Made by a program: the position numbers | From: Escherichia coli | GTDB lineage: Bacteria; Pseudomonadota; Gammaproteobacteria; Enterobacterales; Enterobacteriaceae | Direction: 5' to 3' (one strand) | Assembly (NCBI RefSeq): GCF_024223415.1 | Contig: NZ_CP100500.1 | DNA length: 64,000 nucleotides | Shown here: positions 6,001 to 9,000 of the stretch, one piece after another | Layout of the letters: every line of letters starts with the position of its first letter | Position numbering within the stretch: position 1 is the stretch's first letter

Positions 6001-9000
6001 TTTCTGCTACAGTGCCCGTTTTACGGCAAACGGCTTGGATATGGCTTCATTAAAGGATGTCGCACGCCTGGCGGGAGTGTCGATGATGACAGTCTCCCGG
6101 GTGATGCATAATGCAGAATCTGTGCGTCCTGCAACGCGTGACCGCGTATTGCAGGCAATCCAGACCCTGAATTATGTTCCTGATCTTTCCGCCCGTAAGA
6201 TGCGCGCTCAAGGACGTAAGCCGTCGACTCTCGCCGTGCTGGCGCAGGACACTGCTACCACTCCTTTCTCTGTTGATATTCTGCTTGCCATTGAGCAAAC
6301 CGCCAGCGAGTTCGGCTGGAATAGTTTTTTAATCAATATTTTTTCTGAAGATGACGCTGCCCGCGCGGCACGTCAGCTGCTTGCTCACCGTCCGGATGGC
6401 ATTATCTATACTACAATGGGGCTGCGACATATCACGCTGCCTGAGTCTCTGTATGGTGAAAATATTGTATTGGCGAACTGTGTGGCGGATGACCCAGCGT
6501 TACCCAGTTATATCCCTGATGATTACACTGCACAATATGAATCAACACAGCATTTGCTCGCGGCGGGCTATCGTCAACCGTTATGCTTCTGGCTACCGGA
6601 AAGTGCGTTGGCAACAGGGTATCGTCGGCAGGGATTTGAGCAGGCCTGGCGTGATGCTGGACGAGATCTGGCTGAGGTGAAACAATTTCACATGGCAACA
6701 GGTGATGATCACTACACCGATCTCGCAAGTTTACTCAATGACCACTTCAAATCGGGCAAACCAGATTTTGATGTTCTGATATGTGGTAACGATCGCGCAG
6801 CCTTTGTGGCTTATCAGGTTCTCCTGGCGAAGGGGGTACGTATCCCGCAGGATGTCGCCGTAATGGGCTTTGATAATCTGGTTGGCGTCGGGCATCTGTT
6901 TTTACCGCCGCTGACCACAATTCAGCTTCCACATGACATTATCGGGCGGGAAGCTGCATTGCATATTATTGAAGGTCGTGAAGGGGGAAGTGTGACGCGG
7001 ATCCCTTGCCCGCTGTTGATCCGTTGTTCCACCTGATATTATGCTAACCCAGTTGCCAGAGTGCTCCATGTTGCACCACAGCCACTCCGTGGGAGGCATA
7101 AAGCGACAGTTCCCGTTCTTCTGGCTGCGGATAGATTCGACTACTCATCACCGCTTCCCCGTCGTTAATAAATACTTCCACGGATGATGTATCGATAAAT
7201 ATCCTTAGGGCGAGCGTCTCACCCTGCGGGAGGAGAATACTACGGTAGCCGTCTAAATTCTCGTGTGGGTAATACCGCCACAAAACAAGTCGCTCAGATT
7301 GGTTATCAATATACAGCCGCATTCCTGTGCCGAGCTGTAATCCGTAATGTTCGGCATCACTGTTCTTCAGCGCCCACTGCAACTGAATCTCAACTGCTTG
7401 CGCGTTTTCCTGCAAAACATATTTATTGCTGATTGTGCGGGGAGAGATAGATTGATGCTGCTGGCGTAACGACTCAGCTTCGTGTACCGGGCGTTGTAGA
7501 AGTTTGCCATTGCTCTCTGATAGCTCGCGCGCCAGCGTCATGCAGCCTGCCCAGCCTTCACGTTTTGAGGGCATTGGCGATTCCCACATATCCATCCAGC
7601 CGATAACAATACGCCGACCATCCTTCGCTACAAAGCTTTGTGGTGCATAAAAGTCATGCCCGTTATCAAGTTCAGTAAAATGCCCGGATTGTGCAAAAAG
7701 TCGTCCTGGCGACCACATTTCGGGTATTACGCCACTTTGAAAGCGATTTCGGTAACTGTATCCCTCGGCCTTCATTCCCTGCGGGGAAAACATCAGATAA
7801 TGCTGATCGCCAAGGCTGAAAAAGTCCGGACATTCCCACATATAGCTTTCACCCGCATCAGCGTGGGCCAGTACGCGATCGAAAGTCCATTCACGTAATG
7901 AACTGCCGCGATAAAGCAGGATCTGCCCCGTGTTGCCTGGGTCTTTCGCCCCGACTACCATCCACCATGAGTCGGCTTCACGCCACACTTTAGGATCGCG
8001 GAAGTGCATGATTCCTTCTGGTGGAGTGAGGATCACACCCTGTTTCTCGAAATGAATACCATCCCGACTGGTAGCCAGACATTGTACTTCGCGAATTGCA
8101 TCGTCATTACCTGCACCATCGAGCCAGACGTGTCCGGTGTAGATAAGTGAGAGGACACCATTGTCATCGACAGCACTACCTGAAAAACACCCGTCTTTGT
8201 CATTCTCGTCTCCTGGCGCTAGCGCAATAGGCTCATGCTGCCAGTGGATCATATCGTCGCTGGTGGCATGTCCCCAGTGCATTGGCCCCCAGTGTTCGCT
8301 CATCGGGTGATGTTGATAAAACGCGTGATAACGATTGTTAAACCAGATCAGGCCGTTTGGATCGTTCATCCACCCGGCAGGAGGCGCGAGGTGAAAATGG
8401 GGATAGAAAGTGTTACCTCGGCGCTCGTGAAGTTTTGCTAGTGCGTTTTGCGCCGCATGCAATCGAGATTGCGTCATTTTTATCATCCTGGTTAAGCAAA
8501 TTTGGTGAATTGTTAACGTTAACTTTAATAAAAATAAAGTCCCTTACTTTCATAAATGCGATGAATATCACAAATGTTAACGTTAACTATGACATTTTGT
8601 GATCGAATATGCATGTTTTAGTTAATCCATGACGATTTTGCGAAAAAGAGGTTTATCACTATGCGTAAGTCAGATGAATTTAAGGGAAAAAAATGTCAGC
8701 CAAAGTATGGGTTTTAGGGGATGCGGTAGTAGATCTCTTGCCAGAATCAGACGGGCGCCTACTGCCTTGTCCTGGCGGCGCGCCAGCTAACGTTGCGGTG
8801 GGAATCGCCAGATTAGGCGGAATAAGTGGGTTTATAGGTCGGGTCGGTGATGATCCTTTTGGTGCATTAATGCAAAGAACGCTGCTAACTGAGGGAGTCG
8901 ATATCACGTATCTGAAGCAAGATGAATGGCACCGGACATCCACGGTGCTTGTCGATCTGAACGATCAAGGGGAACGTTCATTTACGTTTATGGTCCGCCC

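What the first reader, a model, noticed from the sequence alone, without database searches (positions are those of the whole stretch)
8487..8692. Two identical 13-bp palindromic motifs (TGTTAACGTTAAC) 64 bp apart in the cscA-cscK divergent promoter region
An exact repeat of a GTTAAC-containing palindrome in a 206-bp divergent control region is unlikely by chance. A LacI-family repressor (CscR) is encoded next door, and such repressors bind palindromic operators, so the two sites plausibly allow co-repression of both promoters.
Basis: partly seen in the sequence, partly recalled or inferred. Interest (0 to 1): 0.4.

Follow-up and report, generated by a model that had tools for sequence, protein, structure and literature searches.

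The report
Known CscR sucrose-repressor operator pair
The two identical GTTAAC-GTTAAC palindromes between cscA and cscK are the already-described operator sites of the sucrose repressor CscR in E. coli, so the finding is real but ordinary.

Summary
TGTTAACGTTAAC occurs exactly twice in the 64-kb window, at 8511-8523 and 8575-8587, 64 bp apart start to start. The core GTTAACGTTAAC is a perfect 12-bp palindrome with the central CG typical of LacI-family operators. The window holds the E. coli csc sucrose locus: cscR 6041-7036 (+), cscA 7044-8477 (-), cscK and cscB (+).

The literature already describes these sites. Jahreis et al. 2002, as cited in PMC11251922 and PMC3938415, reported two copies of a 12-bp inverted repeat as putative CscR operators. 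One of them was hit by derepressing mutations. The same promoter was reported to carry two cAMP-CRP sites.

My comparative scan adds support. Of 80 related Enterobacterales loci, 65 carry the operator pair. About 60 of the 66 aligned modules (65 loci plus the window) share one fixed layout: CRP2, 24 bp, distal operator, 17 bp, CRP1, 47 bp, proximal operator.

The pair is also kept at about 24 loci with no divergent gene. It is therefore an ancestral two-operator module of the hydrolase-operon promoter, not a device made for divergent promoters.

Verdict: already known, low interest. The exact mechanism (steric block, anti-activation of CRP, or looping) remains inferred.

The parts
8511..8523 (.). 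Proximal CscR operator (cscA-proximal). The palindromic core GTTAACGTTAAC is 8512-8523. On the cscA strand it reads AAAGTTAACGTTAACAAT.
   Evidence: Exact copy. Aligns with the downstream operator of 65 related loci, whose cscA-side flank is almost always AAT. A 28-nt exact word spanning it is present in 2647 + 5 of 2663 csc-positive E. coli genomes. The literature says the downstream operator overlaps the cscA transcription start.
8575..8587 (.). Distal CscR operator, probably the site the literature calls the cscKB operator (assignment inferred). The core is 8576-8587. It lies between the two CRP-like sites.
   Evidence: Exact copy. Conserved in 65 loci. A 28-nt exact word spanning it is present in 2628 of 2663 csc-positive E. 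coli genomes. Its centre is 17 bp from CRP1 and 24 bp from CRP2 in 59-60 of 66 modules.
8557..8572 (.). CRP-like site 1: TGCGATGAATATCACA on the + strand, 1 mismatch to TGTGA-N6-TCACA. It lies between the two operators, 47 bp from the centre of the proximal operator.
   Evidence: 0-3 mismatches in 58 of 66 modules, against 4-5 typical for background windows. High information content. The literature reports a Crp site next to the cscA -35 and two cAMP-CrpA sites in the bidirectional promoter.
8598..8613 (.). CRP-like site 2: TGTGATCGAATATGCA on the + strand, 3 mismatches, with the TGTGA half strongly conserved. Its centre is 41 bp from CRP1.
   Evidence: fixed 24 bp from the distal operator in 60 of 66 modules, and a perfect match in several Yersinia and Providencia loci. 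The literature reports two cAMP-CrpA sites.
8531..8536 (-). Inferred -10 element of the cscA promoter (TATTTT on the cscA strand). This would put the transcription start near 8523-8524 and CRP1 near -41.5. The alternative hexamer is 8525-8530, which reads TATTAA here and TATAAA in most E. coli.
   Evidence: CTTTAT.TT is invariant in the 7 divergent-type loci. The consensus promoter scan found nothing in this allele. Inference only; no transcription start data were available.
8650..8660 (+). Conserved block GGTTTATCACT upstream of cscK. It may contain the -10 element of the cscKB promoter, which would put CRP2 near -61.5.
   Evidence: Invariant GTTTATCA.T in 7 divergent-type loci. Its function is inferred.
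6041..7036 (+). cscR, a LacI-family repressor of 331 aa.
   Evidence: Pfam LacI helix-turn-helix PF00356 (76.6 bits) plus Peripla_BP_1 PF00532 (310 bits). RefSeq annotates it as a LacI family regulator. Closest solved homologue is PDB 6NDI (E = 1e-113).
7044..8477 (-). cscA, sucrose hydrolase (invertase).
   Evidence: TIGR01322 at 474.6 bits. RefSeq cscA coordinates.
8693..9607 (+). cscK, fructokinase.
   Evidence: NF006957 fructokinase at 505.7 bits, above the cut-off of 450.
9679..10926 (+). cscB, sucrose/H+ MFS permease.
   Evidence: TIGR00882 oligosaccharide MFS transporter at 594 bits.

Best explanation
The two GTTAACGTTAAC palindromes are the operators of CscR, the sucrose-responsive LacI-family repressor encoded next door. 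They belong to a compact control cassette. Read in the cscA direction, the order is: CRP site 2, distal operator, CRP site 1, core promoter, proximal operator, cscA.

Without inducer, one CscR dimer binds each palindrome.
- The proximal site lies over the inferred cscA transcription start, at about +1 to +12 if CRP1 sits at -41.5. There it would block RNA polymerase.
- The distal site abuts CRP1, with only a 3-bp gap between the cores. It lies about 10 bp from CRP2. There it would interfere with cAMP-CRP activation of cscA, and also of the divergent cscKB promoter, which in E. coli reads out of the distal half of the cassette.
- With sucrose or a product of it present and cAMP high, CscR leaves and CRP activates both operons.

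What is shown: the sites exist, they are conserved, they co-occur with CscR, and the geometry is fixed. What is reported by others: CscR-dependent repression, operator mutations that derepress, and cAMP dependence. What is inferred: the transcription start positions, the clash with or cooperation with CRP, and which operator acts on which promoter.
For: Sequence and neighbouring genes:
- The 12-bp perfect palindrome has a central CG, and the copies are exact.
- An adjacent LacI-family gene is present.

Literature:
- Jahreis et al. 2002 identified two copies of a 12-bp inverted repeat in the cscA-cscK intergenic region as putative CscR operators, and one was the site of an up-mutation. The operators and the Crp site are conserved in 5 species (PMC11251922).
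- CscR is thought to repress through the cscA and cscKB operator sites. A cscKB operator point mutation was recovered again in E. coli W. The bidirectional promoter has two cAMP-CrpA sites (PMC3938415).

My comparisons:
- 65 of 80 loci encoding CscA relatives carry the pair. Spacing is 64 bp in 44 loci, 63 in 11 and 62 in 3.
- 91 exact cores lie in paired modules and 4 elsewhere, against 0.06 expected. The pair is associated with CscR presence (Fisher p = 1.8e-4).
- The centre-to-centre distances 24, 17 and 47 bp are fixed in 59-60 of 66 modules. The CRP-like sites have 0-3 mismatches against a background of 4-5.
- The CscR recognition helix VS[ML]MTVSR and the hinge YVPD.SAR are nearly invariant across orthologues of 48-96% identity.
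- Within E. coli, at least 2628 (distal) and 2652 (proximal) of 2663 csc-positive genomes keep the operators inside exact 28-nt words.
Against: - I could read no footprint or gel-shift experiment showing CscR on these sites. The primary paper, Jahreis 2002, is not held, and secondary sources still call the operators putative.
- The transcription starts are not known to me. The consensus promoter scan finds no sigma-70 promoter in this allele, so the positions +1..+12, -41.5 and -58.5 are inferred from geometry only.
- Proteus loci keep the pair with a 68-69-bp spacing and degenerate CRP sites, so the CRP part of the model is not universal.
- Three loci have the pair but no CscR gene within the fetched DNA. 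L018 is cut short; L005 and L080 are unexplained.
Confidence: 0.88

Rival explanations
1. One operator per promoter. The two sites act independently: the proximal one represses only cscA and the distal one only cscKB. On this view the duplication exists because the promoters are divergent.
For: The literature names a cscA operator and a cscKB operator. A single mutation in the cscKB operator is enough for growth on low sucrose. In E. coli the distal site lies on the cscK side, next to CRP2.
Against: The same pair, in the same orientation and spacing, is kept at about 24 loci where the upstream neighbour is an unrelated co-directional gene (for example Yersinia, Rahnella, Cedecea, Serratia), so no divergent promoter exists there. 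Stephens et al. describe both operators as flanking the cscA -35 and -10 elements, and say the operator mutation raised cscA expression.
Confidence: 0.25
2. Repression loop. CscR bound at both operators bridges them. This would loop out the 64 bp that hold CRP1 and the core promoter, a compressed version of lac O3-CRP-O1.
For: Centre-to-centre spacing is 64 bp, about 6.1 helical turns, which puts the sites on the same face. It is conserved in 44 of 65 loci, and is 62-64 bp in 58. A CRP site, which bends DNA, lies between the operators.
Against: CscR is 331 aa and aligns to LacI only up to about residue 313 of 360, so it is too short to carry a counterpart of LacI's C-terminal tetramerisation helix. 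The position of that helix, about residues 340-357, is established knowledge. The fixed spacing is equally explained by the fixed CRP and promoter geometry. Proteus loci use 68-69 bp, off phase. A 64-bp loop is energetically costly.
Confidence: 0.2
3. The sites are not CscR sites. They could be a chance repeat of tandem HpaI sites (GTTAAC), a site for another regulator such as Cra/FruR, or an RNA hairpin in the cscA leader.
For: No direct binding data were available to me. GTTAAC is itself a 6-bp palindrome, so two in tandem automatically form a 12-bp palindrome.
Against: Chance is excluded. The pair is conserved over 60+ species and tied to CscR orthologues. The half-site GTTAAC differs from the Cra half-site TGAAAC (established consensus, from memory). 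The cscA leader RNA folds no better than shuffled sequence (-2.8 kcal/mol, z = 0.43).
Confidence: 0.03

Closest known systems
CscR operators of the E. coli EC3132 / W csc regulon (Jahreis et al. 2002, J Bacteriol 184:5307; Steen et al. 2014, PMC3938415; Stephens et al. 2024, PMC11251922)
   Same: This is the same element: two copies of a 12-bp inverted repeat in the cscA-cscK intergenic region, flanking the cscA promoter, with cAMP-CRP sites. One copy is the target of derepressing mutations.
   Different: Nothing essential. This window's allele has a rare A at 8527, just outside the proximal operator. My scan extends the conservation from the 5 species in Stephens 2024 to about 65 loci in many Enterobacterales genera, including unidirectional promoters.
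ScrR operators O1/O2 of the scrY promoter (pUR400, Klebsiella; Jahreis and Lengeler 1993, as cited in PMC11251922)
   Same: [quoted passage not shown] The downstream operator lies over the transcription start, and a CRP site lies upstream.
   Different: The repressor lineage is different. CscR scores only 43.9 bits on the fructose/sucrose repressor model TIGR02417, whose cut-off is 389. The scr operators are 14-bp repeats with a different motif, and the CRP site there is poorly conserved.
gal operon OE / CRP and lac O3 / CRP / O1 architectures
   Same: A LacI-family operator sits immediately upstream of a CRP site, and a second operator lies downstream of the promoter. If CRP1 is at -41.5, the csc distal operator is at about -58.5. 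This resembles gal OE at -60.5 next to CRP at -41.5 (established knowledge).
   Different: The second csc operator lies at about +6, not at +53.5 (gal OI) or +11 at a 92-bp separation (lac). CscR has no tetramerisation helix. The positions are inferred, not mapped.
CytR anti-activation cassette (CRP-distal, CytR site, CRP-proximal; PMC3454398)
   Same: A LacI-family protein's site sits between two tandem CRP sites upstream of a CRP-dependent promoter.
   Different: The csc CRP centres are 41 bp apart; for deoP2 the figure is about 52 bp (from memory). The CscR site is a strong perfect palindrome rather than weak half-sites with a variable spacer. CscR is not a CytR orthologue: 137.6 bits against a cut-off of 436. 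No CscR-CRP contact is known.

Membership tests
LacI/GalR-family operator (specifically a CscR operator) | Palindromic site of about 12-20 bp with a central CG step | tested here: met
   GTTAACGTTAAC is a perfect 12-bp palindrome centred on CG, and it is present twice.
LacI/GalR-family operator (specifically a CscR operator) | A cognate LacI-family repressor gene in the same locus | tested here: met
   cscR at 6041-7036 has Pfam PF00356 plus PF00532 and a RefSeq annotation as a LacI family regulator.
LacI/GalR-family operator (specifically a CscR operator) | Site conserved upstream of the regulated genes in orthologous loci, and co-occurring with the regulator | tested here: met
   65 of 80 loci carry the pair. 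91 of 95 exact cores lie in paired modules. Association with CscR gives Fisher p = 1.8e-4. The helix-turn-helix is invariant.
LacI/GalR-family operator (specifically a CscR operator) | Position overlapping or flanking the core promoter | tested here: inconclusive
   No transcription start data were available and the consensus scan found no promoter. The geometry relative to the CRP sites is consistent with a start at the edge of the proximal operator. The literature states that the downstream operator overlaps the start.
LacI/GalR-family operator (specifically a CscR operator) | Direct, inducer-sensitive binding by the repressor (gel shift or footprint) | not testable with these tools
   Needs experiment. 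Secondary sources still call the sites putative.
LacI/GalR-family operator (specifically a CscR operator) | Operator-constitutive mutations map to the site | not testable with these tools
   Reported by others: Jahreis 2002, as cited. A cscKB operator mutation was recovered again in E. coli W. I could not see the exact coordinates.
CRP-activated promoter | A match to TGTGA-N6-TCACA at a standard distance from the transcription start | tested here: inconclusive
   The motifs are present: CRP1 has 1 mismatch and CRP2 has 3, and both are conserved. The distance to the start is inferred only. cAMP dependence is reported in the literature.
LacI-type tetramer loop | A C-terminal tetramerisation helix in the repressor | tested here: not met
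   CscR (331 aa) aligns to LacI residues 5-313 of 360 and ends about 13 residues later.
CytR-type anti-activator cassette | The repressor is a CytR orthologue that contacts CRP | tested here: not met
   The CytR equivalog model gives 137.6 bits against a cut-off of 436. Protein-protein contact cannot be tested here.

The most novel reading that the evidence does not exclude
The invariant cassette (CRP2, 24 bp, distal operator, 17 bp, CRP1, 47 bp, proximal operator) is kept across more than 55 enterobacterial loci, including unidirectional promoters. It might work as a fixed higher-order CscR-CRP nucleoprotein complex rather than as two simple roadblocks. Two forms are possible. One is CytR- or GalR-like anti-activation, in which a dimeric CscR at the distal site contacts or displaces CRP. 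The other is a CRP-assisted micro-loop between two CscR dimers.
Probability: 0.2. Interest if true: 0.4.

Novelty: already known. Interest (0 to 1): 0.1.

Why it matters
It matters little as a discovery. The two palindromes were described as CscR operators in 2002 and re-examined in 2014 and 2024.

The practical relevance is to strain engineering. E. coli W and csc-carrying K-12 strains are sucrose production hosts, and derepression of csc by deleting cscR or mutating an operator is a standard improvement.

The one modest addition is the comparison across about 65 loci. It shows that the operator pair and both CRP sites form a rigid module shared by csc-like loci in many Enterobacterales genera. 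This gives a precise template for the missing footprinting, transcription start mapping and spacing experiments. It also argues that the distal operator is more than a cscKB operator.

Tried and rejected
- The primary paper, Jahreis et al. 2002, could not be read by DOI or by PMC135337. My guessed PMC id for Sabri et al. 2013 was not held either. The published operator and transcription start coordinates therefore come only from secondary citations.
- The consensus promoter and terminator scan of 8400-8760 found nothing. This is probably because this allele has TATTAA where most E. coli have TATAAA. The promoter positions are therefore inferred from geometry.
- RNA hairpin idea for the cscA leader: rejected (MFE -2.8 kcal/mol, z = 0.43).
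- Covariation between CscR hinge or recognition residues and operator variants: no clear pattern. The variants are a central CG changed to TG/CA in Providencia, and GATAAC/GTTATC in Proteus. The recognition helix is invariant throughout.
- Autoregulation of cscR in E. coli: no motif within 3 mismatches upstream of cscR between 5575 and 6040.
- The 1-mismatch match at 63069 lies inside a 756-aa ORF and was treated as chance.
- PMC10132054, PMC6599523, PMC11382391 and PMC3032704 were checked and hold no operator detail.
- Cra/FruR as the binding factor: rejected on half-site mismatch (from memory of the consensus) and because CscR scores poorly on the fructose/sucrose repressor model.

Full report
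**Observation**

The window sequence between 8478 and 8692 contains TGTTAACGTTAAC twice, at 8511-8523 and 8575-8587 on the + strand, 64 bp start to start. These are the only exact copies in 64 kb. The 12-bp core GTTAACGTTAAC is a perfect palindrome centred on CG; the 13th base (T) is not part of the symmetry. The direct repeat extends to 17 nt at 94% identity.

In 20,000 first-order Markov simulations of the 206-bp region, 57 reached a direct repeat of 13 nt or more. Only 2 had a repeated perfect 12-bp palindrome.

**Context**

- The flanking genes are dsdA (4246-5574, -) and a LacI-family regulator within ORF 5855-7036 (+), whose true start is 6041.
- Next come a GH32 sucrose hydrolase (-), a fructokinase (8693-9607, +) and an oligosaccharide MFS permease (9679-10926, +).
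- A 361-bp query spanning the region matches 2663 of 5426 complete E. coli genomes, always on the chromosome.
- A strain identical to the window over that 361-bp query (SCU-316) is annotated with cscA starting at window 8477, a LacI family regulator at 6041-7036, a dsdX remnant and tRNA-Arg.
- This is the E. coli csc sucrose locus. RefSeq annotates no regulatory feature here.

**What is already published**

- Stephens et al. 2024 (PMC11251922) state that Jahreis et al. [quoted passage not shown] - The same paper says the repeats are conserved in five species and flank the cscA -35 and -10 elements, with the downstream one over the transcription start. A Crp site lies next to the -35.
- Steen et al. 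2014 (PMC3938415) write that CscR is thought to repress the divergent cscA and cscKB operons through the cscA and cscKB operator sites in the intergenic region.
- They recovered a spontaneous point mutation in the cscKB operator that had been seen before and allows growth on low sucrose. They also report two cAMP-CrpA sites in the bidirectional promoter, and note that the inducer is not determined.
- Ravcheev et al. 2014 (PMC4052901) list CscR among the LacI-family sucrose regulators that have reconstructed motifs.
- I could not read the primary paper. Everything I saw is genetic or comparative evidence, and the operators are still called putative.

**Independent comparative test**

A scan of one genome per species with CscA returned 80 loci from Enterobacterales, with CscA identity of 53-97%. 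I mapped CscR, CscA, CscK and CscB homologues in each locus, then scanned for the core with up to 2 mismatches.

- Sixty-five loci carry a pair of sites. Spacing is 64 bp in 44 loci, 63 in 11, 62 in 3, and 68-69 in the 7 Proteus loci.
- The pair always lies in the intergenic region upstream of the operon that contains the hydrolase gene. It is always in the same orientation relative to that operon.
- Exact cores number 91 inside paired modules and 4 elsewhere. Those 4 are single-site loci, also upstream of csc genes. Only 0.06 are expected in 998 kb.
- Presence of the pair is associated with a CscR orthologue in the locus (62/8 versus 3/7, Fisher p = 1.8e-4).
- Across orthologues of 48-96% identity, the CscR recognition helix (VS[ML]MTVSR) and hinge (YVPD.SAR) are almost invariant. 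This matches the invariance of the operator.
- Within E. coli, any 28-nt exact word in my 36-nt queries must span the operator. Such words are found in 2628 genomes for the distal site and 2647 + 5 for the proximal site, out of 2663 csc-positive genomes.

**The cassette**

The module alignment and its information profile show four conserved blocks with drifting sequence between them. Read in the cscA direction they are:

- A CRP-like site, CRP2 (window 8598-8613, TGTGATCGAATATGCA on the + strand).
- The distal operator.
- A second CRP-like site, CRP1 (8557-8572, TGCGATGAATATCACA on the + strand).
- The proximal operator.

The centre-to-centre distances are 24, 17 and 47 bp in 59-60 of 66 modules (the last is 45-47 bp). 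The CRP-like sites have 0-3 mismatches to TGTGA-N6-TCACA. Random 25-nt search windows in the same loci typically give 4-5 mismatches.

The rest of the geometry is inference, because no transcription start data were available and the consensus scan finds no promoter in this allele:

- If CRP1 is a class II site at -41.5, the cscA start is near 8523.
- The proximal operator then covers about +1 to +12.
- The distal operator is centred near -58.5, and CRP2 near -82.5.
- The invariant CTTTAT.TT block supplies a -10-like TATTTT at the right place.

In the seven divergent-type loci, a further invariant block GTTTATCA.T at about 8650-8660 may be the cscKB -10 element. That would put CRP2 near -61.5 for that promoter.

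**Why two operators**

In about 24 loci the gene upstream of the cassette is an unrelated, co-directional gene. These include Yersinia, Rahnella, Ewingella, Cedecea and Serratia. There is no divergent promoter in these loci, yet both operators and both CRP sites are retained with the same geometry.

In Klebsiella, Raoultella and Phytobacter the divergent gene is the cscR homologue itself. In Proteus it is a fructokinase-like gene.

The two-operator layout is therefore ancestral to the hydrolase-operon promoter. It is analogous to the two ScrR operators around the scrY promoter. E. coli cscKB uses the distal half.

**Mechanism**

The most likely mechanism is as follows.

- CscR dimers occupy both palindromes when inducer is absent.
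- The proximal dimer occludes RNA polymerase at the cscA start.
- The distal dimer abuts CRP1, with a 3-bp gap between the cores and no gap to the 22-bp CRP site. It would interfere with cAMP-CRP activation of cscA and of cscKB.

A repression loop is possible, since 64 bp is about 6 helical turns. However, CscR is 331 aa and aligns with LacI only to about residue 313 of 360, so it lacks the tetramerisation helix. The Proteus spacing is also off phase. An RNA-level role is rejected.

**Verdict**

The finding is real and the CscR-operator interpretation is right, but it is already known. Interest is low. The residual open point is how the rigid operator/CRP cassette works mechanistically.

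Noticed in passing
window 8527: The window has A at 8527, 4 nt outside the proximal operator. Almost all csc-positive E. coli have T there. On the cscA strand this changes a -10-like TATAAA to TATTAA. Only 5 of 5426 complete genomes share the window's 36-mer, while 2647 match the T version.
   Followed up: partly
window 8477-8486: The cscA ORF's first ATG is at 8486 (480 aa). RefSeq, and the start conserved across species (MTQSR...), use the ATG at 8477 (477 aa). The intergenic region is therefore 215 bp, not 206 bp.
   Followed up: yes
window 8650-8660: The block GGTTTATCACT, about 35 bp upstream of the cscK ATG, is invariant (GTTTATCA.T) in E. coli, Citrobacter amalonaticus, Tatumella and Pluralibacter. 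It may be the -10 region of the cscKB promoter or another binding site.
   Followed up: partly
L006-L080 (e.g. L020 4657-4732, L071 4644-4719): Many Enterobacterales genera carry a locus with an MFS transporter only about 40% identical to CscB, a CscA-like hydrolase and a CscR-like repressor. They include Yersinia, Rahnella, Serratia, Klebsiella, Raoultella, Cedecea and Erwinia. These loci have the same GTTAACGTTAAC operator pair and CRP sites. The CscR-type regulatory module is therefore much more widespread than the E. coli-type cscRAKB gene order.
   Followed up: partly
L044-L047, L052, L053, L060 (Proteus): Proteus loci keep two operators, but as variants GATAACGTTAAC and GTTATCGTTAAC. They are spaced 68-69 bp apart instead of 64, and the CRP-like sites are degenerate.
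   Followed up: no
L008, L009, L014 (Providencia); L011, L013 (Morganella): These loci have operators in which the central CG is changed to TG or CA (GTTAATGTTAAC, GTTAACATTAAC). Their CscR homologues are the most divergent (48-49% identity). Morganella has only one site.
   Followed up: no
L005 (Tatumella), L080 (Serratia sp. Ag1): The operator pair is present, but no CscR homologue was detected within the 6-kb flanks. The repressor may be encoded elsewhere or may have been lost.
   Followed up: no
window 5592-5810 and 11350-11424: RefSeq annotation of the SCU-316 locus, which matches the window 100% over the 361-bp query, shows a truncated dsdX pseudogene between dsdA and cscR. It also shows tRNA-Arg (argW) downstream of cscB. 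Both fit the published description of csc as an insertion at the argW/dsd hotspot.
   Followed up: partly
window 6041-7036: PDB 6NDI, deposited only as 'Transcriptional regulator' (334 aa), is a close full-length homologue of CscR (E = 1e-113). Its N-terminus matches the Klebsiella-type CscR-like proteins, so a structural template for CscR exists.
   Followed up: no
window 63069-63081: TGTTAACGATAAC, one mismatch from the operator 13-mer, lies inside a 756-aa ORF (61390-63660). It was treated as a chance match.
   Followed up: no
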